The notes under the pieces are model-generated. The model worked only from the letters and a program-made list of their open reading frames with translations, ran no database searches and was not told where the DNA came from. A stretch of DNA of 7,738 bases, taken from IMG/VR virus record IMGVR_UViG_2802429219_000018; one strand, given 5' to 3'. Positions within the stretch are counted from its first letter, which is position 1, and the number at the start of each line of letters is the position of its first letter. The position numbers and the translations under genes are program-made. This DNA comes from a virus (taxonomy: Duplodnaviria > Heunggongvirae > Uroviricota > Caudoviricetes). Shown one piece after another: positions 478 through 7,738 of this stretch.

Positions 478-2616
478 CTATTCATCCAGTTCATCATCCA
501 TAAGTAATGCATACGCTCTTAACTGCTTACCGTTCAGATGCTTTATTCTGGGTGTTCTTGTTTGCCACCCTTTACCACTTGAAGGGCGTTTAAGCATATT
601 TGCCCCATGAAGCACACTTGCAGCATGGTTTGCATCAAATCCACTTGCCACCTCGGCTTTAAAAACAGCCGGAAGAACATAAAAAGTTATAGCATCATCA
701 AGGTTTGATTTTCCTTTATTTTTATAACCAGCAAGGTTATGAATACTCATCTGGCTCAATTCATCAAAATCAACAGGTACAAAACGACTAATGCTATTTG
801 CTGTAAGAAATGATGTTGCCTGCTCAATAATCTGCTCGTTTTCCTTATTGCCTGTCCCGAACTCAGCCACCCATACATTAAAAACATGCTGTAACGCATC
901 TCGACACGCTAATGAGTCCCATCCAGTAATATGTTCAGAAAGCAGCATTGCACATTCCATAACTGCAAAACGATCCTTTACTCTATGAACTTGCTCGCCG
1001 TAATGTTGCGGAATAAGAGAATCCCATCGCTCTAACGCTCGTTTATAAGCCTCCTTCGCTTCCTGTTGATGATCTGCAAGCCATCTGATCCACTCACGAC
1101 CCGCCGCGCCATAATTTTCTTTCCATGCTGCTTCCAGTGCCTTCGCATGTTTCTCTCCATTTTCGTATCCATGAAATTCAGTTGGTCGAGATACAGGGAT
1201 ATTCAGTAATCTAACGAGCTGTCCAGCTTTTACTTTGATTCCTGCTCCAGCGAGAAAAGTTTCAATACTTTTCTCTCCTGTACTGATAACAACCGTTTCG
1301 AAATATTTAATTTCACGGTTCCCACCATCAGGACTTCCCTGTAATTTCCCTTTTCCATTAAAAAGAGTATAAGACGACGTAAATACACTTCTGGCACTGG
1401 AAGCCTGCTCTATTTCATCAAGAGCCAATAAACAGTGATTATGTGATTCTGCTTCGTTAGTTATACCCAACGCCGTTCCATACCAGGAAAGCCGTTGTTG
1501 TTTTGGAATTCCATACAGACTTGAGGCAAAATCTTCCGCAGTTGTTTTTCCCGCTGTACTTTGCGCATACAGATGCACACCAAAGCCATCAGCACCAATA
1601 ACACCAATCAGCGGGGCTGCCAGTGACGTAGCAGCCGCCAGCATCTGAAACGGGTTTTTATATGCCAATTTTGCAACATTCTCGCGCCAGCTTTCAGTAG
1701 TTCCTTTTACGCGATAAGCCAGCCTTGAGGCACTTCCTCCGGTAAACATAACTGGGGTTTCAGGCTCACCAATAACATCACCATTTGGCATGATGTAGAT
1801 GCCACCAAACCACCCGGAACGTTGTGTAGCCGTATACTGTAACCCTTTCTGAGCTTCATTCTGTATCCAGTCAGATAGAAGCTCTCTGGCCTTATTTTGT
1901 GTAGTAATTTTTAATCCCCAGTCTTTAAGGCGTGACCATCCCTGAGGGGTTCCAATCATTCCGGCTCTAATACAATGAGTAACCATTTCCCCCCTGAATT
2001 TCCAGCGTAAAGCAATAAACATTGCGTCATTTTCTCTATCAAATCCTTCGCCTAACACTTCCAGAGGTGAGCACATCCATTGACCATGGCGGGTTATCTC
2101 TCCTGAACGTTCAATTTTTGGGGTAACCCAGTACATACCTACTGGATCCGCATTTATACGCAATTCAACGTAAGGCGCCAGTTCATCGCGTGCCTGATTA
2201 CTTGCAGATTGCACAATATCCGTCATCGACACTTCTCCGCTCTCTACCTGTTCACGGATCCGTTGCAAGTAGTCGCGCCAGTTCTCCGGCTCCCGGTCGG
2301 TGATGCCTTTGTATAATTTCGCATCCTGTACGCCAGCCAGCGCCAGCTTTTCAGCAATAGCGTTGATCTGAATTGGCTCCATTTCCCCCGCGATATAAAC
2401 ACGCGCAAAGCGGCGCTCATCGTCAATAATGCGGATATTCGCCAGGTCTGCCAGTTGCTTTGGCCCCAGGTAAACAGGTGGTACGTTATCGCCGTGTTTT
2501 CGTCCTTCGCTTTCAATCCAGTGTTGAGCATGGGAGTAAGCGTCCGTCCCGGCAAAAATGATTACCTCGGTGAATTTATCCTTCGGCTGATATTTTAAAT
2601 TCGGTGCGTTTTTCAC
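478..2616 (-). CDS. Replication initiator, putative primase/helicase (P-loop NTPase of the DUF927 / SF3-helicase-like type; N-terminal primase-like region not confidently assigned)
   Basis: 712-aa ORF with GTG start at 2616 preceded by GGGAGG six nt upstream. Walker A-like motif AQSTAGKTT and Walker B-like CLLALDEIEQ in the central region, in a context (HLYAQSTAGKTTAEDFASSLYG ... SWYGTALGITNE) that I recall resembling DUF927-type replication ATPases of integrative elements. Iteron array lies immediately downstream. Family assignment is from memory, not a search. Confidence 0.7.
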   Translation of the reverse strand: MKNAPNLKYQPKDKFTEVIIFAGTDAYSHAQHWIESEGRKHGDNVPPVYLGPKQLADLANIRIIDDERRFARVYIAGEMEPIQINAIAEKLALAGVQDAKLYKGITDREPENWRDYLQRIREQVESGEVSMTDIVQSASNQARDELAPYVELRINADPVGMYWVTPKIERSGEITRHGQWMCSPLEVLGEGFDRENDAMFIALRWKFRGEMVTHCIRAGMIGTPQGWSRLKDWGLKITTQNKARELLSDWIQNEAQKGLQYTATQRSGWFGGIYIMPNGDVIGEPETPVMFTGGSASRLAYRVKGTTESWRENVAKLAYKNPFQMLAAATSLAAPLIGVIGADGFGVHLYAQSTAGKTTAEDFASSLYGIPKQQRLSWYGTALGITNEAESHNHCLLALDEIEQASSARSVFTSSYTLFNGKGKLQGSPDGGNREIKYFETVVISTGEKSIETFLAGAGIKVKAGQLVRLLNIPVSRPTEFHGYENGEKHAKALEAAWKENYGAAGREWIRWLADHQQEAKEAYKRALERWDSLIPQHYGEQVHRVKDRFAVMECAMLLSEHITGWDSLACRDALQHVFNVWVAEFGTGNKENEQIIEQATSFLTANSISRFVPVDFDELSQMSIHNLAGYKNKGKSNLDDAITFYVLPAVFKAEVASGFDANHAASVLHGANMLKRPSSGKGWQTRTPRIKHLNGKQLRAYALLMDDELDE

Positions 2617-2903
2617 TTCTTACCTCCCGCAACCAACATTGCCCGGATTTTTTTAATATTCGTGGCTGCACGTCTCGCCACCGCCTGTTGTTTGTTTTCC
2701 ACCAGAATAAAATCACGCTCAAACTGACGGCGCGGCATTACGCAGTCATATTCGTAAGCCTCACGGCGGTAGGTGATATTGCCTGGCGTAACGTGACGAA
2801 TAACCACTCGTCCCCCACGTCTGGTGTCGCGGTAAATATCTCCGTGTCTGATTTCAGGCCGAGAGAGACCGCTGGCAGTAAAGCCAGAATTTTTCTTTTT
2901 CAT
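2613..2903 (-). CDS. Hypothetical small basic protein (96 aa), translationally coupled to the replication gene
   Basis: ATG at 2903 with AGGAAA about 8 nt upstream. Its TGA stop overlaps the GTG start of the replication gene (GTGA at 2616-2613). Lys/Arg-rich, protein-like composition. No family recognised. Confidence 0.55.
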   Translation of the reverse strand: MKKKNSGFTASGLSRPEIRHGDIYRDTRRGGRVVIRHVTPGNITYRREAYEYDCVMPRRQFERDFILVENKQQAVARRAATNIKKIRAMLVAGGKK

Positions 2904-2907
2904 GGTT

Positions 2908-3108
2908 TTATTTTCCTGTCAGCAGTTCCGGTTTTATTCCTGCACTAATACAGAGTTCAGAAAAGCCTTCTGCCGTACTTACAATTTCATTATTTCGCAG
3001 CCGGCATTGTGATTTCACTTTCCCTTTATCCAGGTAAACCAGTATGCGTCCGGTGAAATCCTCTGGCACATTCAGGGTAATTGTCATTGTTGCTGGCTTA
3101 TTACCCAT
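2908..3108 (-). CDS. Hypothetical protein (66 aa) carrying one copy of the FTG...ENG...ExxxEL repeat domain
   Basis: ATG at 3108 overlaps the stop of the upstream gene (ATGGGTAA, 3108-3101). A G-run lies 6 nt upstream as a likely ribosome-binding site. The sequence EDFTGRILVYLDKGKV...AEGFSELCISAG aligns with both repeats of the adjacent 122-aa protein. Confidence 0.55.
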   Translation of the reverse strand: MGNKPATMTITLNVPEDFTGRILVYLDKGKVKSQCRLRNNEIVSTAEGFSELCISAGIKPELLTGK

Positions 3109-3469
3109 GGTTCACCCCCCCCTGAATGACCTGATAACCGCAACTGGTCAGCAATTCGATAAATTCCGGCAGTGTGCCGAAACAGCAATCATCACGCAGC
3201 CGTTCGCGGGATACCTCGACGCCGTTTTCGTAGTGACTCACCATGCGTCCGGTAAAATGCAGATCATCATCGTGATGGCACGTTAACGGCTTAATCAGTC
3301 GCGCACGTTCCGCCAGTTCCAGCAATGCTTCAACGCTTCCGGCAATTGCACCATCCGGCAGGTGGTAATTACGCACTATGCGCCCGTTCTCCACATTGAC
3401 CAGCAACTGCCCGGTAAATTTCTCGTCAAACTGAATGCTGTTAAGGTCAGAAATTGACAGGTTATGCAT
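3101..3469 (-). CDS. Hypothetical protein (122 aa) with a tandem duplication of the FTG...ENG...ExxxEL domain
   Basis: ATG at 3469 with AGGAGG 7 nt upstream; the start overlaps the stop of the upstream 67-aa ORF (ATGCATAA, 3469-3462). Repeat A is EKFTGQLLVNVENGRIV...VEALLELAERA; repeat B is LHFTGRMVSHYENGVEV...LPEFIELLTSCG. Confidence 0.6.
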   Translation of the reverse strand: MHNLSISDLNSIQFDEKFTGQLLVNVENGRIVRNYHLPDGAIAGSVEALLELAERARLIKPLTCHHDDDLHFTGRMVSHYENGVEVSRERLRDDCCFGTLPEFIELLTSCGYQVIQGGVNHG

Positions 3470-3665
3470 GGTGCACCTCCTGGCGAATACGGGCAGCGAA
3501 TACCATCACGCAGCCATCAGGAGATTGCTGACGCGCTTCCTGTTCGCTGATGGCCTCGATGTGAATTACGCGCGGTTGTGCCGTACTCAGGGCGATAAAA
3601 CGCCAGATATATTTATTCAGGTTGTGCGAGTCCCGCCCTTGCGGGTGTGTGGTATGATTTCTCAT
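3462..3665 (-). CDS. Hypothetical small protein (67 aa), first gene of the replication operon
   Basis: Internal ATG at 3665 (in frame with the 3462..4457 ORF of the track) preceded by GAGG 5 nt upstream. Protein-like composition from this ATG onward, whereas the upstream part of the long ORF translates the operator repeats and the antisense of the + strand gene. Stop overlaps the next start. Confidence 0.45.
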   Translation of the reverse strand: MRNHTTHPQGRDSHNLNKYIWRFIALSTAQPRVIHIEAISEQEARQQSPDGCVMVFAARIRQEVHHA

Positions 3666-3756
3666 AGCTACCTCGATACTGTTGCTATCGTTGGTGGTTA
3701 GAAGCCCGGTTAGTGTTAGCGCACTGCCGGGTTTCGTCGTTTTTATGAATCGATCA

Positions 3757-3860
3757 TTGTGAGATACATAGTCATCACAATGTGAGATATACATTATATT
3801 GTGGTGATATACATTGCAAGTGTTTTTATATCTCACTTTTGTGTATAGTGATATACACAT
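3757..3860. promoter_or_regulatory. Operator-like repeat array in a divergent promoter region
   Basis: Direct copies of GTGA(G)ATA(TA)CA at 3759-3770, 3782-3795, 3804-3815 and 3848-3860, spaced about 22 bp apart, plus an inverted copy ATATCTCAC at 3828-3836. Inverted pair CATTGTGA (3755-3762) / TCACAATG (3774-3781). Candidate minus-strand promoter: -35 TTGCAA (3819..3814), 15-nt spacer, perfect -10 TATAAT (3798..3793). The array lies between the divergent starts at 3665 (minus) and 3880 (plus). Confidence 0.5.
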
Positions 3861-3879
3861 AACTAATTGGTGATTAACT

Positions 3880-4182
3880 ATGTCTGTATACAAAAATGCA
3901 AAATCGCAAATGACAACGATCAGGGTTCCCCACGATGTTATGGAGGGTATGGAATCCGTAAAACTGGACGGCGAAAGCAACGCCGGATTCATAGTAACCG
4001 CCATGCGTGGTGAGATCGCCCGCCGCCAGGCAGAAGGAAGAGGAGAAAATCCCCTGGTTTCTTCGCTCGATGCACTGGCGCAGGTGGAAAAAATCGGAGT
4101 CAAAGCAGCCGAGGAGATCGGGCAGCTCGTCACCGTCGCGCGTGAAGAACTCCAGCGCCGCAAGGCCAAAGAACAGGAGTAG
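3880..4182 (+). CDS. Small putative DNA-binding regulator, ribbon-helix-helix-like N-terminus (CopG/Arc/RelB-DinJ-like pattern) with a charged helical C-terminus
   Basis: ATG at 3880 with GGTGA 6 nt upstream. The N-terminal segment TTIRVPHDVMEGMESVKLDGESNAGFIVTAMRGEIARRQ fits a strand-helix-helix pattern. Composition is protein-like, whereas the overlapping minus-strand frame is Ser/Thr/Cys-rich. Only + strand gene in the window. Fold call is by eye. Confidence 0.5.
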   Translation: MSVYKNAKSQMTTIRVPHDVMEGMESVKLDGESNAGFIVTAMRGEIARRQAEGRGENPLVSSLDALAQVEKIGVKAAEEIGQLVTVAREELQRRKAKEQE

Positions 4183-4403
4183 TTGATCAGCACCGGGCAA
4201 CCAGAAAAAATCGTATCAGTCGCGCTACCAGCAAAATTTTTTGCTTTCCGGACAGCGTGGCCAACGGCATTTTGCAGCAAAATATTCTGCATTTCTGGCG
4301 TGCTGTAGTAACGGTGATCAGCGCCTTCACATTGAACGAACTTGTCGCTAAAATTCACCCATATAGCAAACATCGCGGTGCTACAGGTAATTCGTTCACA
4401 AAG

Positions 4404-4435
4404 GCGCTCCGGCAACGGGGCGCTTTCTCTTTTTG
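4404..4435 (+). terminator. Rho-independent terminator, + strand orientation
   Basis: Stem GCGCTCCG (4404-4411), GCAA tetraloop (4412-4415), stem CGGGGCGC (4416-4423): 8 bp with one G-U pair, followed by TTTCTCTTTTT (4424-4434). It lies between the convergent 3880-4182 (+) and 4450-5250 (-) genes. The reverse strand has only a weak U-tract (CUUUGUG). Confidence 0.6.
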
Positions 4436-4449
4436 TAACGGTCAGAGCG

Positions 4450-5250
4450 TTACACATGGCTGTTTTCCTCCATGCGACGGGCTAACCAACGCTGCGAAAG
4501 ACGAATTAATTCAGCTTTCCGCTGGTGGTAGTCCTGGCCTAACTCAATCAGCGTGATATTGCTCTGCTCAAGGTAAGAAAGGTGCTCAAGCTGCAATGTG
4601 CTCATGTGGTCGCGTGGTTCGCCTGTGATGTCGTTCGCCTGCGCCCACTGTTTTGCAGTCATGCCACCCAGCACGATACGCGCCAGCATGTTCGCTTCCG
4701 TGGTGTAGTGGTGCTGGAGTGTGTTTTTACCCAGTTCAGCCCGGTACGCCTCCAGCGCGGCACACATTGGCTTAAAGTAGCTGGCAACTGTGATACGGGC
4801 TTTCAGTTCCCGGCGTAACGCTGCGGAACGCACTGGCGCTACCTTGTGTAGCTCCTCCTCGCATTTGATGAAGTACTGACGAACGGCGCGGCCCTGTTCG
4901 GTGCGTTCGACCATCGCCAGTTCTTTCGCCATGTTGATAGTGCTCAGGTAGTCGTGCTCTATACGTTGGCGAGATTTTGCGCTCACCGGATTGGGGGAGG
5001 TCAAATTTTCTACGAATTCAAAATCCACGCCCTTTTTAAATCCGTACTCATCAATGCGTCCTTTAATCCAGGTTGTGAAATCACGGCCTACCCCGAGCGC
5101 CTTATGCAACGCTCTGGCGCTAACAATATTGGTTTCACGCCCGCCAATAACGCCGGAAATAACCGGGATAATTTCGCCAAAATTTTGCAGATTCTGGTTT
5201 TCAGGCCGAACGAAGCCCTGCCCCTGTACGGGCGTTTTTGGAAATTTCAT
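4450..5250 (-). CDS. Phage antirepressor-like protein, AntA/AntB (Bro-N-like) N-terminal domain
   Basis: ATG at 5250 with AGGAG 5 nt upstream. The N-terminal region ARALHKALGVGRDFTTWIKGRIDEYGFKKGVDFEF...DYLSTINMAKELAMVERTEQGRAVRQYFIKCEEEL matches the characteristic AntA-domain pattern (L-H..L.V...F..WI..RI..YGF..G.DF ... Y.LT.DMAKEL.MVER...G...R.YFI.CE) as I recall it. C-terminal half unassigned. Confidence 0.7.
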   Translation of the reverse strand: MKFPKTPVQGQGFVRPENQNLQNFGEIIPVISGVIGGRETNIVSARALHKALGVGRDFTTWIKGRIDEYGFKKGVDFEFVENLTSPNPVSAKSRQRIEHDYLSTINMAKELAMVERTEQGRAVRQYFIKCEEELHKVAPVRSAALRRELKARITVASYFKPMCAALEAYRAELGKNTLQHHYTTEANMLARIVLGGMTAKQWAQANDITGEPRDHMSTLQLEHLSYLEQSNITLIELGQDYHQRKAELIRLSQRWLARRMEENSHV

Positions 5251-5327: not shown

Positions 5328-5525
5328 TCAGGTAGCTGTTCCGCGTGATTCCGCAATACGCTGATTAATCCACTCGTCAATTTCACTCTCAACGAAAGCA
5401 ATCGCTCGCGAGCCAATTTTTACAGGTTTAGGAAAACGCCCTTGGGCAATGAGTTTATAGATCCATGCCCTGCCATAGCCTGTACGGCGCATGGTTTCTG
5501 GCATACGAATTAAAGATTGTGACAT
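5328..5525 (-). CDS. alpA: AlpA-family phage regulatory protein (excisionase-like helix-turn-helix)
   Basis: The segment IRMPETMRRTGYGRAWIYKLIAQGRFPKPVKIGSRAIAFVESEIDEWINQR matches the AlpA family signature. I chose the start at ATG 5525 (GGGAGA 8 nt upstream, giving 65 aa); the track ORF extends to a GTG at 5594, which lacks an SD and lies inside an operator palindrome. Confidence 0.85.
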   Translation of the reverse strand: MSQSLIRMPETMRRTGYGRAWIYKLIAQGRFPKPVKIGSRAIAFVESEIDEWINQRIAESRGTAT

Positions 5526-5590
5526 GATAATCGTCTCCCGTTGTTTATTGATGCCTACGGGAGACATTGAAGCAGGTAAGACATTGGATA

Positions 5591-5630
5591 TCACCGCAAT
5601 TGCGGTGAATGATACCGCAATTGCGGTATA
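5591..5630. promoter_or_regulatory. Two perfect 18-bp palindromic operator-like sites upstream of alpA
   Basis: TCACCGCAATTGCGGTGA (5591-5608) and ATACCGCAATTGCGGTAT (5612-5629), sharing the 14-bp perfect palindrome ACCGCAATTGCGGT; centres 21 bp apart. They lie between the stop of the 251-aa gene (5640) and the alpA start. No U-tract follows either site, so they are not intrinsic terminators. Confidence 0.55.
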
Positions 5631-6395: not shown

Positions 6396-6523
6396 TCTGT
6401 GCTACCTCGCACCCTCTGTAAAAGTGGCTGTGCCAGCCCGCAGAGGTGTACGGGTTTTCAGGAGCGACCCTAGACACAGCCTTTTCTTAATCGCTCAAAG
6501 TCTACTACTGTATACTCAACCAG

Positions 6524-7738
6524 TCACCCGCATTTTCCGAACTCACCATGCACCACATTTCCGCCATGCTCGAGCGAATCCATATAATCGGCGTACCACT
6601 GAAGCATTTCCCGCCGTCCATCCAGATATTGCGCATGGTTGTATGTGCCACGAATTGAGTTTTTATCGACGTGTGCGAGCTGCGTCTCTATCCATGCGGT
6701 GTTATAGCCCTGCTCATGCAAAATGGTGCTCATGGTGTGCCGGAATCCATGACCAGTAACCTTTCCGTTATAGCCGATGCGTTTAAATACTTGGTTTATG
6801 CTAGCCTCGCTCATTGTTTTCCTTGGATCATTACGGCCGGGAAACATAAGCGGATAATTGCCAGTTAATTCTTTAATCTGCCCAATAAGAGAAAGAGCCT
6901 GCTTAGACAAAGGCACCACATGAGGGCGACGCATTTTCATCCGTGAAGCAGGTATCTCCCAGATAGCCTTGTTGAGATCGATTTCATCCCATAATGCACC
7001 GCGCAGTTCGCCAGTTCGCAAACCAGTGATAATCAGTAGACGAGCCGCCATAACAACCAATGCACTTCCTGAGTAACTGGACAATGCCTTGAAAAAATCA
7101 GGCAATTCTTTGGCTGTGAGGAAAGGATAATGATTAGATTCATGGCCTTGCATCGCGCTAGTAAGATCTGGGGCAGGGTTATACTCTGCGCGACCAGTGA
7201 CTATTGCATAGCGGAAAACTTCCCCACACCGCTGCCTCACTTTTTTGGCTTTTTCTGTAGCACCGCGCCCCTCGATGCGTCGCAGCACATTCAGAAGTTC
7301 AAGTGGTTTGATTTCGGCGATTGGTTTTTTGCCAATGTAAGGGAACACATCTTTGTTGAAGGCTTCGAGGATGTCTGAAGCATAACCAGCAGACCATTTT
7401 TTTAATTTGCTGCTGTGCCACTCAAGGGCAATATCTTTGAAGGTGTTGTTTAACTGCGTTTCCCGGGCAATCTTTTCCTCTCGTTTCGCTTCCATCGGAT
7501 CGATACCCCCAGCGATACCCCTTTTAGCTTCTTCACGTTTTGCACGAGCATCAGCCAAGGTAACTTCAGGATACACACCTAGTGCTAACAGCTTCTCTTT
7601 ACCAGCTACACGATACTTGAAGCGCCAATATTTTCCTCCACTAGGTTTTACCAAGAGATACAGACCACCACCATCAGCCAGCTTGTAAGCCTTCTCTTTT
7701 GGCTTGGCAGTGTCTATTTGACGGGCATTGAGTTTCAC
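6524..7738 (-). CDS. int: Site-specific tyrosine integrase, P4-type (N-terminal arm-binding domain plus catalytic domain)
   Basis: The N-terminus KLNARQIDTAKPKEKAYKLADGGGLYLLVKPSGGKYWRFKYRVAGKEK is the typical P4-family integrase arm-binding region. C-terminal catalytic signature HGFRHT...LAH...RGTYNHAQY (H-x-x-R, catalytic Tyr). The ORF starts with GTG at the very last base of the window, so the true start may be at or just beyond the edge. Confidence 0.9.
   Translation of the reverse strand: MKLNARQIDTAKPKEKAYKLADGGGLYLLVKPSGGKYWRFKYRVAGKEKLLALGVYPEVTLADARAKREEAKRGIAGGIDPMEAKREEKIARETQLNNTFKDIALEWHSSKLKKWSAGYASDILEAFNKDVFPYIGKKPIAEIKPLELLNVLRRIEGRGATEKAKKVRQRCGEVFRYAIVTGRAEYNPAPDLTSAMQGHESNHYPFLTAKELPDFFKALSSYSGSALVVMAARLLIITGLRTGELRGALWDEIDLNKAIWEIPASRMKMRRPHVVPLSKQALSLIGQIKELTGNYPLMFPGRNDPRKTMSEASINQVFKRIGYNGKVTGHGFRHTMSTILHEQGYNTAWIETQLAHVDKNSIRGTYNHAQYLDGRREMLQWYADYMDSLEHGGNVVHGEFGKCG

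What the first reader, a model, noticed from the sequence alone, without database searches (positions are those of the whole stretch)
2908..3469. A ~50-aa FTG...ENG...ExxxEL domain occurs three times across two adjacent, translationally coupled small genes
The 122-aa protein contains two copies (EKFTGQLLVNVENGRIV...VEALLELAERA and LHFTGRMVSHYENGVEV...LPEFIELLTSCG) and the downstream 66-aa protein a third (EDFTGRILVYLDKGKV...AEGFSELCISAG). The shared pattern is F-T-G-[QR]-[LIM]-[LV]-V, then about 4 residues, [EDK]-[NK]-G-[RKV]-[IV], then about 15 residues, then E-x-[FL]-x-E-L-x-x-[SR]-x-G. Tandem paralogous small proteins directly upstream of a replication gene suggest a dosage- or assembly-dependent accessory function, such as helper-phage interference, replication licensing or a toxin/antidote-like pair. 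I cannot assign the domain to a named family.
Basis: seen in the sequence. Interest (0 to 1): 0.65.

Follow-up and report, generated by a model that had tools for sequence, protein, structure and literature searches.

The report
Triplicated small domain in satellite operon
Two small overlapping genes in a phage-satellite island carry three real copies of an uncharacterised ~50-residue domain that sits in a swappable slot for small accessory genes; its function is unknown, and it most likely binds another protein.

Summary
A profile built only from distant homologues finds exactly three copies in the window: residues 11-58 and 71-116 of the 122-aa protein and residues 1-62 of the 66-aa protein (E 4e-15, 7e-15, 1e-25; next best ORF E about 2). 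The genes overlap by 8 nt.

The domain belongs to PHROG family phrog_340 (function unknown). It has no Pfam, NCBIfam, PADLOC or PDB relative. AlphaFold2 gives a beta-hairpin plus helix (pLDDT 89). The hairpin resembles one MORN-variant repeat (hhalign 90.6%).

The window is a Gram-negative PICI-type satellite. The genes are not directly upstream of the replication gene: a DUF4222 gene lies between. They occupy a combinatorial cassette slot between an Icd-like gene and DUF4222-primase. Only 30 of 80 Icd-anchored loci carry the domain, and the working satellite EcCICFT073 has none. Single copies also occur in early-left operons of lambdoid prophages with no Icd-like match within the about 8 kb held on each side. 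This argues against replication licensing and against an obligate toxin/antidote pair.

Fusions to Bro-N, ORF6N and AntA antirepressor-type domains suggest a protein-binding accessory module acting on helper-phage or host proteins. That mechanism is inferred, not shown. Interest is moderate.

The parts
3101..3469 (-). Gene for the 122-aa protein with two phrog_340 domains joined by a disordered linker (residues 61-66)
   Evidence: ORF. phrog_340 matches in two stretches, E 1.2e-29. AlphaFold2 gives two hairpin-helix units, pLDDT 68.5. dN/dS is 0.13-0.18 against orthologues.
3296..3439 (-). Domain copy 1 (residues 11-58 of the 122-aa protein)
   Evidence: Independent HMM, E 3.8e-15.
3122..3259 (-). 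Domain copy 2 (residues 71-116 of the 122-aa protein)
   Evidence: Independent HMM, E 6.6e-15.
2908..3108 (-). Gene for the 66-aa single-domain protein (domain copy 3, residues 1-62 = nt 2923-3108)
   Evidence: ORF. phrog_340 E 1.2e-16. Independent HMM E 1.1e-25. AlphaFold2 pLDDT 89.2: strands 21-27 and 30-37, helix 46-55. dN/dS 0.58-0.77.
3101..3108 (-). 8-nt stop/start overlap ATGGGTAA between the 122-aa and 66-aa genes
   Evidence: Read from the sequence.
3115..3122 (-). Run of eight G. It encodes the Gly-Gly of the 122-aa C-terminus and forms most of the Shine-Dalgarno-like GGGGGGTG for the 66-aa gene
   Evidence: Read from the sequence. The C-termini of homologues vary here: QGVNHG, QGGVNHG, QGGKHA.
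3462..3469 (-). 8-nt stop/start overlap ATGCATAA between the Icd-like gene and the 122-aa gene, with GGAGG at 3476-3480
   Evidence: Read from the sequence.
3462..3665 (-). Icd-like (host cell division inhibitor-like) gene, 67 aa, first gene of the overlapping chain
   Evidence: NCBIfam NF033153, E 6e-19. 92% DNA identity to the Icd-like gene of EcCICFT073.
2613..2903 (-). DUF4222 gene (96 aa), the conserved downstream border of the cassette slot. It starts 4 nt after the 66-aa stop and overlaps the primase start (GTGA)
   Evidence: Pfam PF13973, E 1.4e-19. Junctions read from the sequence.
478..2616 (-). DUF927 primase/helicase-type replication gene (712 aa)
   Evidence: Pfam DUF927, E 7.9e-45. 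phrog_1139 'DNA primase', E 8.7e-110.
3023..3059 (+). DNA-level repeat core (reference copy) covering the FTG...(E/D)(N/K)G hairpin. The other copies are at 3222-3258 and 3384-3420
   Evidence: the repeat finder family D1: three copies, 65-70% identity, spacings 199 and 162 nt.

Best explanation
WHAT IT IS (shown). The two genes encode three copies of one autonomous domain of about 50 residues: a beta-hairpin (FTGRxLVxxENGxV) followed by an amphipathic helix (FxELAxxAGY). The domain belongs to an uncharacterised family of temperate-phage and satellite proteins, PHROG phrog_340.

WHERE IT SITS (shown). The window is a Gram-negative PICI-type satellite: integrase, int-alpA RNA, AlpA, AntA-like gene, Icd-like gene, small genes, DUF4222, primase. 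The genes occupy a combinatorial slot for small-gene cassettes between the Icd-like gene and DUF4222-primase. At least five unrelated cassette families are mixed in this slot across islands, and domain copy number is 0, 1, 2 or 3. All genes from Icd-like to the primase are linked by 4-8-nt overlaps or a 4-nt gap. No promoter- or terminator-like site was found on that strand at the junctions.

HOW IT AROSE (inferred). The 122-aa protein looks like a tandem, fused pair of domains. Other genomes carry shorter chimeras whose breakpoints lie within or between the two copies, as expected if the copies still recombine.

WHAT IT DOES (inferred, not shown). By analogy with EcCICFT073, the operon is probably switched on by AlpA when a helper phage is induced. 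The domain is most likely a small module that binds another protein in roughly one-to-one amounts. It would act alone here, and elsewhere as the C-terminal module of Bro-N, ORF6N or AntA antirepressor-type proteins. It would bind and neutralise, or redirect, a helper-phage or host protein early in the satellite cycle. The three diverged paralogues (25-36% identical) would broaden or strengthen the range of targets. It is not part of the core replication machinery.
For: - The repeat is real.
- Family: 111 library representatives at E <= 1e-3, mostly proteins of 56-95 aa; the sources that name an organism name Escherichia, Salmonella, Klebsiella and Raoultella. A few of the 111 are long MORN-repeat or other repetitive proteins.
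- Fold: pLDDT 89.2 for the 66-aa protein, hairpin plus helix. The 122-aa model shows two such units on a disordered linker.
- Island type: int, AlpA, AntA, Icd-like, DUF4222 and DUF927; int-alpA RNA RF02996 at 49.8 bits; Icd-like gene 92% identical to that of EcCICFT073.
- AlpA activates EcCICFT073 genes, and helper phages induce alpA (PMC6092414).
- Cassette slot: arrays in L001, L002, L008, L009, L010 and L014-L019. In 62 IMG/VR loci anchored on the 66-aa orthologue, 46 have three domains, 3 have two and 13 have one. In 80 Icd-anchored loci, 30 carry the domain, in more than 20 architectures.
- Not essential: EcCICFT073 has four unrelated cassettes and no member of this family.
- Not tied to replication or to Icd: single copies lie in the early-left operons of Klebsiella lambdoid prophages and Salmonella Fels-1, between the repressor and xis/int, with no Icd-like match in the about 8 kb held on each side (5 kb or to the record end for Fels-1).
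- Protein-binding reading: fusions Bro-N + domain (P0132), ORF6N + domain (L170 2617-3198; a divergent copy, E 8e-11) and AntA + domain (P0052). The family is mostly acidic (median pI 5.6). The hairpin aligns with a MORN-variant repeat (hhalign probability 90.6%, E 1.3e-6).
- Selection: the 122-aa gene is under purifying selection (dN/dS 0.13-0.18). The 66-aa gene changes 4-5 times faster at the protein level than its neighbours (dN/dS 0.58-0.77).
- Chimeras consistent with recombination between copies: P0033, P0036, P0040, P0046-P0048.
- Operon layout: no promoter- or terminator-like site on the minus strand at the gene junctions; the single minus-strand promoter-like match lies inside the 66-aa gene and scores 9 of 12.
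Against: - No binding partner, phenotype or biochemical activity is known for any member of the family.
- The MORN resemblance covers only 24 residues. The MORN proteins compared were themselves picked up by this family's profile. The reverse search is weak (best E 2e-4 among 52 sequences), and Pfam MORN_2 does not match any member.
- The fusions are few. P0052 looks like a recent recombinant, and a fourth fusion is to a primase CHC2 zinc finger (P0172), which points the other way.
- The high dN/dS of the 66-aa gene could reflect relaxed constraint rather than conflict, and it rests on two comparisons.
- Transcription and translation of these genes were not observed here.
Confidence: 0.45

Rival explanations
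1. The domain proteins are regulators or sensors of the Icd-like toxin encoded just upstream. Together with DUF4222 and the primase they would form an abortive-infection or superinfection-exclusion module: each paralogue recognises an incoming phage protein and releases or activates the Icd-like cell-division inhibitor.
For: The domain genes follow the Icd-like gene directly, with an 8-nt overlap. In E. coli ECOR61, transposon hits in an Icd-like gene and in the two small genes next to it suppressed cell death triggered by phage gene orf24. Icd and the first small gene also overlap by 8 nt there. All six linked genes, including a primase, were needed to reconstitute the effect, and Icd-like was proposed as the effector (preprint 10.1101/2023.04.06.535777). 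The hairpin resembles MORN_2 repeats; from my own recollection, NCBI names such proteins 'YwqK family antitoxin'.
Against: 50 of 80 Icd-anchored loci lack the domain. EcCICFT073 has Icd-like but no member. Prophage members have no Icd-like match in the DNA held. The ECOR61 small genes encode 61 and 63 aa, sizes not seen for E. coli members here. Their sequence could not be obtained, so membership is untested.
Confidence: 0.15
2. The proteins are accessory replication factors for the downstream DUF4222-primase module, for example helicase loading, origin recognition or replication licensing.
For: They share an overlapping operon with DUF4222 and the primase/helicase. One family member is fused to a DnaG-type CHC2 zinc finger (P0172).
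Against: The domain is absent from the replication-competent EcCICFT073 and from the Edwardsiella and Klebsiella islands L011 and L012. It is present alongside three different replication modules: DUF927, 'DNA primase family' and RepA helicase. In prophages it lies in the early-left operon, on the other side of the repressor from the replication genes. The family is mostly acidic and has no recognisable DNA-binding motif.
Confidence: 0.08
3. The three copies act as an assembly, a covalent dimer plus a monomer forming a pseudo-trimer or higher oligomer, and function depends on dosage and stoichiometry.
For: Three domains per operon is the commonest state in this island lineage: 46 of 62 loci. 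Translational coupling would tie the amounts of the proteins together. From general knowledge, single hairpins of the MORN type normally need partner strands to form a sheet.
Against: AlphaFold2 gives no fixed arrangement of the two domains (pTM 0.36, disordered linker). Arrays with one or two domains are common. Prophages carry a single copy. In the commonest array an unrelated cassette separates the two genes.
Confidence: 0.12
4. The genes are drifting cargo with no current function: duplicated filler in a recombination-prone slot.
For: dN/dS of the 66-aa gene is 0.58-0.77. Deletion chimeras, fusions and truncated variants are common.
Against: dN/dS of the 122-aa gene is 0.13-0.18. The family motif is kept across members only 25-40% identical in several genera. 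DNA similar to these genes is found in 690 of 5426 complete E. coli genomes.
Confidence: 0.05

Closest known systems
PHROG family phrog_340 (prokaryotic virus orthologous group, function unknown)
   Same: All three domain copies match this profile: E 1.2e-29 in two stretches for the 122-aa protein and E 1.2e-16 for the 66-aa protein. Prophage homologues in Klebsiella and in Salmonella Fels-1 (STM0898.2n) match it as well.
   Different: PHROG describes a single-domain protein of about 85 residues. The tandem two-domain form, three copies per operon and the satellite context are not part of that description. No function is attached to the family.
MORN-variant repeat (Pfam MORN_2, PF07661)
   Same: Residues 20-43 of the 66-aa protein (GRILVYLDKGKVKSQCRLRNNEIV) align with the whole 24-residue repeat (hhalign probability 90.6%, E 1.3e-6). 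Apart from one repetitive protein with no Pfam family (P0107), the long multi-stretch hits of the exhaustive search that I scanned were MORN_2 proteins (P0130, P0169), often with the same FTG lead-in.
   Different: There is one hairpin per domain, capped by a helix, rather than a stack of tandem hairpins. Pfam MORN_2 does not match any member, and the reverse repeat profile is weak. This is a resemblance in the hairpin, not membership.
C-terminal modules of Bro-N, ORF6N and AntA antirepressor-type phage proteins
   Same: The domain occupies the C-terminal position behind Bro-N (P0132), ORF6N (L170 2617-3198) and AntA (P0052). Antirepressor-type genes (AntA, Rha, ORF6N, BRO-N) lie in the same operons within 1-2 kb.
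   Different: In the window the domain stands alone. No sequence similarity was found to any Pfam, NCBIfam or PADLOC family. Binding to a repressor is untested.
ECOR61 Icd-like cell-death locus (Silas et al., bioRxiv 10.1101/2023.04.06.535777)
   Same: The layout is the same: an Icd-like gene, then small genes starting with an 8-nt overlap, then a primase, six linked genes in all. Transposon hits in the small genes suppress cell death.
Phage P4 left operon (kil, eta, cI, epsilon, orf151, alpha) and the P1 immI operon (c4, icd, ant). Recalled from my own knowledge, not tested here
   Same: The position is analogous: small genes lie between an Icd/Kil-type gene and the primase. P4 epsilon is a small protein that derepresses the helper phage. 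In P1, translation of icd is coupled to that of the downstream ant gene.
   Different: No sequence comparison with P4 epsilon or orf151 was made. According to PMC6092414, PICIs and P4 share only distant homology in Int, AlpA/Vis and Pri.

Membership tests
PHROG phrog_340 | Significant match to the family profile over most of its length | tested here: met
   122-aa protein: E 1.2e-29, two stretches. 66-aa protein: E 1.2e-16, residues 1-59 against profile positions 7-65 of 85.
Pfam MORN_2 (PF07661) | Pfam profile match above the gathering score | tested here: not met
   No MORN_2 hit for the window proteins at E <= 0.1, or for any of 52 family members at E <= 1.
Pfam MORN_2 (PF07661) | Tandem array of several 22-24-residue hairpin repeats | tested here: not met
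   AlphaFold2 gives one hairpin per domain, followed by a helix. Only a single-repeat alignment was obtained (hhalign 90.6%).
Toxin-antitoxin pair with the Icd-like protein as toxin | Toxin and antidote genes consistently occur together | tested here: not met
   50 of 80 Icd-anchored loci lack the domain. Prophage members have no Icd-like match in the DNA held on either side.
Toxin-antitoxin pair with the Icd-like protein as toxin | The antidote neutralises the toxin's growth inhibition | not testable with these tools
   Needs co-expression and viability assays.
Gram-negative PICI (phage-inducible chromosomal island), the element that carries the genes | Integrase, AlpA activator and primase/replication module in the same orientation and order | tested here: met
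   int 6524-7738(-), AlpA 5328-5594(-), DUF927 478-2616(-). int-alpA RNA RF02996 above its gathering score. The Icd-like gene is 92% identical to that of EcCICFT073, and the gene order matches.
Gram-negative PICI (phage-inducible chromosomal island), the element that carries the genes | Induction, replication and packaging depend on a helper phage; size about 10-15 kb with no full set of structural and lysis genes | not testable with these tools
   The window ends at the primase gene. Related islands continue with ProQ/FinO, PerC and a few morphogenesis-type genes, but mobilisation needs an experiment.
Antirepressor (Ant/Bro/KilA-type) proteins | Presence of a Bro-N, AntA, ORF6N or KilA-N N-terminal domain | tested here: not met
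   The 122-aa and 66-aa proteins have no such domain. Only some homologues are fused to one.
Antirepressor (Ant/Bro/KilA-type) proteins | Binds and inactivates a phage repressor | not testable with these tools
   Needs binding and derepression assays.
Pfam DUF7330 (PF24016) | Profile match above the gathering score (27 bits) | tested here: not met
   13.7 bits, E 0.048 for the 66-aa protein. Only 8 of 52 members give weak hits.
Pfam PF27490 'Rem' (precomputed label on two homologues) | Significant Pfam hit | tested here: not met
   Listed only as 'faint', meaning no single hit reaches E 0.001, on P0022. The family is not in the local Pfam copy.

The most novel reading that the evidence does not exclude
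The Icd-like gene, the variable small-gene cassettes, DUF4222 and the primase together form a satellite-encoded sensor-effector immunity module. The phrog_340 paralogues would be interchangeable specificity subunits. Each would recognise a different protein of an incoming or helper phage and gate the Icd-like cell-division toxin and/or satellite replication. Cassette number and type would then set the breadth of recognition. This would make the ECOR61 cell-death locus one instance of a widespread, modular system. DNA similar to the two genes is present in about 13% of complete E. coli genomes (690 of 5426).
Probability: 0.1. Interest if true: 0.75.

Novelty: new member of a known kind. Interest (0 to 1): 0.4.

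Why it matters
The domain has no assigned function, yet DNA similar to these genes is found in 690 of 5426 complete E. coli genomes, mostly in satellite islands that spread virulence and defence genes. It marks a slot not described in the papers read here: between the Icd-like gene and DUF4222-primase, small genes are shuffled like cassettes at conserved overlapping junctions. The same slot was hit in a screen for phage-triggered cell death in ECOR61. If the cassettes prove to be binders of helper-phage or host proteins, the slot would be a compact source of new inhibitors or sensors used in conflicts between phages, satellites and hosts. It would also help explain how these satellites adapt to different helpers. 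As it stands, this is a well-verified uncharacterised family, not a new kind of system.

Tried and rejected
- Family libraries. Pfam, NCBIfam and PADLOC gave nothing for either protein. Pfam on 52 homologues gave only sub-threshold noise: DUF7330, Nif11 and others.
- PF27490. The precomputed label on two homologues is a 'faint' hit to 'Rem'; I discarded it.
- PDB by sequence. The single-sequence search hit designed armadillo-repeat proteins (E 3e-4) with no stretch significant on its own; I rejected these as chance matches. Profile searches gave only phototropin and an RNF4 hairpin near E 0.004-1.5, also rejected.
- P0107, an 876-aa repeat protein with no Pfam family, matched through its repeated 'HFTGQCLLHTD' unit. 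I treated it as a repeat-driven match, not a homologue.
The one genome-contig scan, with the Icd-like protein, returned only three loci.
- ECOR61 contig QOYT01000045.1 could not be retrieved, and the preprint's supplements hold coordinates only. The Icd-[gap of about 350 nt]-DUF4222 arrays were a candidate match for ECOR61, but the example I checked (L111) holds a single unrelated 106-aa gene.
- Literature searches for DUF4222, PF27490 and a published version of the preprint gave nothing useful. EcCIMP1_002 ('UvrB-like') in PMC11773190 lies near the start of that island by its number and the paper links it to no function, so I dropped it as a lead without comparing sequences.
- 'Plasmid' homologues are mostly non-mobilizable Klebsiella records of 37-42 kb. 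Their size suggests phage-like replicons (not checked), and they give no support for a link to plasmid leading regions.
Full report
**1. The observation**

The window has two minus-strand ORFs exactly where the finding says: 3101-3469 (122 aa) and 2908-3108 (66 aa). They overlap by 8 nt (ATGGGTAA). A G-rich Shine-Dalgarno-like run, GGGGGGTG, ends 5 nt before the second ATG.

The three proposed segments are significantly similar.
- Pairwise BLASTP gives E 7e-7, 1e-6 and 7e-6 at 30-36% identity.
- PHROG family phrog_340 matches the 122-aa protein in two stretches (E 1.2e-29) and the 66-aa protein once (E 1.2e-16).
- To avoid circularity I built a profile from 46 distant homologues, leaving out the window's own sequences and close relatives, and scanned all 137 stop-to-stop ORFs of the window. 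It finds exactly three domains: residues 11-58 and 71-116 of the 122-aa protein (E 3.8e-15 and 6.6e-15) and residues 1-62 of the 66-aa protein (E 1.1e-25). The next best ORF has E about 2.
- The repeat survives at DNA level as three copies of a 37-nt core, 65-70% identical.

The substance is right.

Both genes look like real coding genes. DNA similar to them is found in 690 of 5426 complete E. coli genomes. The 122-aa gene has dN/dS 0.13-0.18 against orthologues.

**2. The domain**

An exhaustive profile search of 1.84 billion representative proteins found 111 hits at E <= 1e-3. Most are proteins of 56-95 aa with one domain, and a few have two. The consensus is xDFTGRVLVxxENGxVxSxxxLxxDExVxTLxxFxELAxxAGYxV. 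The sources that name an organism name Escherichia, Salmonella, Klebsiella and Raoultella.

No curated family covers the domain.
- Pfam, NCBIfam and PADLOC are empty for both proteins.
- A precomputed 'PF27490' label on two homologues is only a faint hit to a family called Rem.
- Searches of the PDB by sequence gave only chance hits.

AlphaFold2 on the 66-aa protein with 52 diverse homologues gives a confident model (pLDDT 89.2): a beta-hairpin (residues 21-27 and 30-37), a helix (46-55) and a short C-terminal helix. The 122-aa protein is predicted as two such units on a disordered linker, with no fixed arrangement between them (pLDDT 68.5, pTM 0.36).

There is one lead. Apart from one repetitive protein with no Pfam family (P0107), the long multi-stretch hits that I scanned were MORN_2 repeat proteins, often with the same 'FTG' lead-in. 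A profile-profile comparison aligns residues 20-43 of the 66-aa protein with a whole 24-residue MORN-variant repeat (probability 90.6%, E 1.3e-6). The reverse search is weak, and Pfam MORN_2 does not hit any member. I therefore treat this as a resemblance of the hairpin, not membership.

The family is mostly acidic (median pI 5.6).

**3. Genomic setting**

The window is a Gram-negative PICI-type satellite. On the minus strand it carries:
- integrase (6524-7738);
- an int-alpA RNA motif (RF02996, 49.8 bits);
- a 251-aa coiled-coil protein;
- AlpA (5328-5594);
- an AntA-like protein (4450-5250);
- an Icd-like gene (3462-3665);
- the two genes of the finding;
- DUF4222 (2613-2903);
- a DUF927 primase/helicase (478-2616).

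The Icd-like gene is 92% identical in DNA to that of EcCICFT073, the prototype E. coli PICI, and the gene order is the same. An Escherichia ruysiae island has a nearly identical integrase and AlpA.

In EcCICFT073, AlpA activates the island's genes and is itself induced by helper phages (PMC6092414).

From Icd-like to the primase, every junction is an 8-nt or 4-nt overlap or a 4-nt gap. No promoter- or terminator-like site lies on that strand at the junctions; the single minus-strand promoter-like match is inside the 66-aa gene and scores 9 of 12.

**4. A combinatorial cassette slot**

Comparing islands shows that the stretch between Icd-like and DUF4222 is a variable slot. Writing 'phi' for one copy of the domain and 'phi-phi' for the fused two-domain gene, the arrays seen are:

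| Island | Array between Icd-like and DUF4222 |
|---|---|
| Window and L001 | phi-phi, phi |
| Salmonella L014 | phi-phi only |
| L002 and E. ruysiae L010 | A, phi-phi, C, phi |
| L019 | A, phi-phi, C (pseudogene), D |
| L018 | phi, A, D-like |
| O157:H7 SS52 (L009) | phi, fused A+C, D |
| O103 (L017) | fused A+C, D |
| O18 (L016) | D-like only |
| EcCICFT073 (L008) | X, A, C, D (no phi) |

A, C, D and X are unrelated small, apparently helical proteins.

Counts from IMG/VR support this.
- Of 62 loci anchored on the 66-aa orthologue, 46 have three domains, 3 have two and 13 have one. The commonest array is Icd-A-phi-phi-C-phi-DUF4222 (34 loci). The window's arrangement is found in 8.
- Of the 80 best loci anchored on Icd-like, only 30 carry the domain, in more than 20 architectures.

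Three copies is thus typical of this lineage. Adjacency of the two genes is not conserved, and the domain is dispensable for a working satellite.

Cassette junctions are conserved (for example ...VHHA* overlapping MHN...). In other genomes neighbouring cassettes are fused across them: two-domain + C (P0001, P0006), Icd + phi (P0066) and A + C (O157). Many shorter homologues are chimeras that join an N-terminal part of repeat 1 to a C-terminal part of repeat 2, for example at the shared FTG motif (P0033, P0036, P0040, P0046-48). This is as expected if the copies recombine.

**5. The domain outside satellites**

Diverged single-copy members lie in Klebsiella lambdoid prophages and in Salmonella phage Fels-1 (STM0898.2n). 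They sit in the early-left operon between the CI-type repressor and xis/int. Their neighbours are other PHROGs of unknown function (phrog_1737, phrog_1886, phrog_1515). Antirepressor-type genes (ORF6N, Rha) lie one to two kb downstream. No Icd-like match is present in the DNA held, which is about 8 kb on each side for the Klebsiella loci and 5 kb or to the record end for Fels-1.

A homologue of EcCICFT073 cassette X lies about 1.1 kb upstream of the domain gene in two of the Klebsiella-type prophage loci examined (L082, L085). Phages and satellites therefore share this cassette family.

Four fusions were found:
- Bro-N + domain (P0132);
- ORF6N + domain in a phage-like E. coli plasmid (L170 2617-3198; a divergent copy, so probably an old fusion);
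- AntA + domain (P0052; probably a recent recombinant);
- CHC2 zinc finger + domain (P0172).

**6. Mechanism**

Shown:
- a real, autonomous, thrice-repeated domain;
- membership of phrog_340;
- location in an accessory cassette slot of a PICI early operon;
- no strict tie to the Icd-like gene, to a particular replication module, or to adjacency of the two genes.

Inferred: the domain is a small protein-binding module. It stands alone here and serves as the C-terminal module of antirepressor-type proteins elsewhere. It would bind a helper-phage or host protein early after induction, and three diverged paralogues would widen or reinforce the range of targets. The 66-aa paralogue changes 4-5 times faster at the protein level than its neighbours (dN/dS 0.58-0.77). 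That fits a conflict interface but could also be relaxed constraint. I give this overall reading 0.45. The descriptive parts are near certain; the binding mechanism is about 0.3.

Rivals:
- A sensor or regulator of the Icd-like toxin in an abortive-infection module (0.15). The ECOR61 screen supports it, because transposon hits in an Icd-like gene and its two small neighbours suppressed phage-gene-triggered death and six linked genes including a primase were needed. The lack of obligate co-occurrence weakens it, and I could not obtain the ECOR61 sequence.
- A replication accessory factor (0.08).
- A dosage-dependent assembly (0.12).
- Drifting cargo with no function (0.05).

**7. Comparison with known systems, and novelty**

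The family is already catalogued as phrog_340, with unknown function. The host element is a known kind of satellite. I found no description of the following in the libraries or papers consulted:
- the fused two-domain form, with three copies per operon as the usual state in this lineage;
- the hairpin-plus-helix model with a MORN-like hairpin;
- chimeras that indicate recombination between the copies;
- the recognition that the stretch from Icd-like to DUF4222 is a combinatorial cassette slot.

I file this as a new member of a known kind: small, fast-changing accessory genes of temperate phages and satellites. Interest is moderate (0.4). The most novel reading still open is that the slot encodes interchangeable specificity subunits of an Icd-based immunity module (probability about 0.1).

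Noticed in passing
window 3666-3738 (+), just upstream of the Icd-like start codon (3665-3663 on the minus strand): A strongly structured element: two hairpins, -37.2 kcal/mol, z -6.2 against shuffles, followed by a U-rich tail. Rfam gives a sub-threshold SymR-antitoxin-like match (32.9 bits, gathering score 61, E 0.0028). The sequence aligns well in six of the eight islands compared (window, L001, L002, L008 CFT073, L009 O157, L011 Edwardsiella). RNAalifold marks 6 of 20 predicted pairs as having a change on both sides, but the covariation term is unfavourable (+1.53) and two rows were badly aligned. It could be an antisense RNA or leader that controls translation of Icd-like and, through coupling, of the whole chain.
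   Followed up: partly
window 6412-6480 (-): int-alpA RNA motif (Rfam RF02996), 49.8 bits against a gathering score of 35.8. It lies between the integrase gene and the 251-aa gene.
   Followed up: no
window 3115-3122 (-): A run of eight G at the junction of the 122-aa and 66-aa genes. It encodes Gly-Gly and forms the ribosome-binding-like sequence for the next gene. C-termini of homologues differ here (QGVNHG, QGGVNHG, QGGKHA). By my reading of the sequence, losing one G in the window would create an early TGA stop. This is a possible slippage site.
   Followed up: partly
window 3462-3469 and 3101-3108; loci L001, L002, L008, L009, L010: Cassette borders are conserved overlapping stop/start junctions (...VHHA* overlapping MHN..., ATGCATAA type). 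In other genomes neighbouring cassettes are fused across them: two-domain + 'MRDDRF' cassette (P0001, P0006), Icd + domain (P0066) and the A + C cassettes in O157 and O103 (154 aa).
   Followed up: partly
window 3462-4457 (-): The reading frame of the Icd-like gene stays open for about 1 kb upstream (a 331-aa ORF), antisense to the YlcI/YnfO gene. The same long open frame is seen in L001, L002, L008, L009, L010 and L012. In CFT073 it contains AntA-like sequence. PGAP sometimes annotates part of it as an Icd-like pseudogene (L009), and the ECOR61 preprint mentions a 'long N-terminal extension'. It is unclear whether a longer Icd-like protein is ever made.
   Followed up: partly
window 2908-3108 (-) compared with L001 and L002: The 66-aa gene has dN 0.12-0.14 and dN/dS 0.58-0.77. 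Icd-like and the 122-aa gene have dN about 0.03 and dN/dS 0.13-0.18. Protein identity to orthologues is 71-80%, against 91-99% for the neighbouring genes.
   Followed up: partly
window 478-2616 (-) and the DUF4222/primase junction at 2613-2616: Downstream of the conserved DUF4222 gene, otherwise similar islands carry different replication genes: DUF927 here (712 aa), 'DNA primase family protein' in L001, DUF5906 in L002, and RepA-type helicase in O157, O103 and Salmonella. The GTGA overlap looks like another module border.
   Followed up: no
window 4450-5250 (-): The C-terminal part (residues 171-255) of the AntA-like 266-aa protein matches PADLOC candidate defence protein PDC-S22 (E 3e-10) and phrog_2657 'transcriptional regulator'.
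   Followed up: no
L082 3687-3935 and L085 3689-3937 (Klebsiella-type prophage loci from IMG/VR): A homologue of the first cassette of EcCICFT073 (cassette X, MSQEITLQQAAERAH...) lies about 1.1 kb upstream of the prophage copy of the domain (E 1.8e-10 and 1.5e-09). Lambdoid prophages and PICI satellites therefore share this cassette family.
   Followed up: partly
window 3880-4182 (+): The YlcI/YnfO-family ORF is 100 aa here (phrog_6522 over its full length, E 1.2e-59). The gene annotated at the same place in related E. coli islands is 59 aa. A terminator-like hairpin follows at 4401-4426.
   Followed up: no
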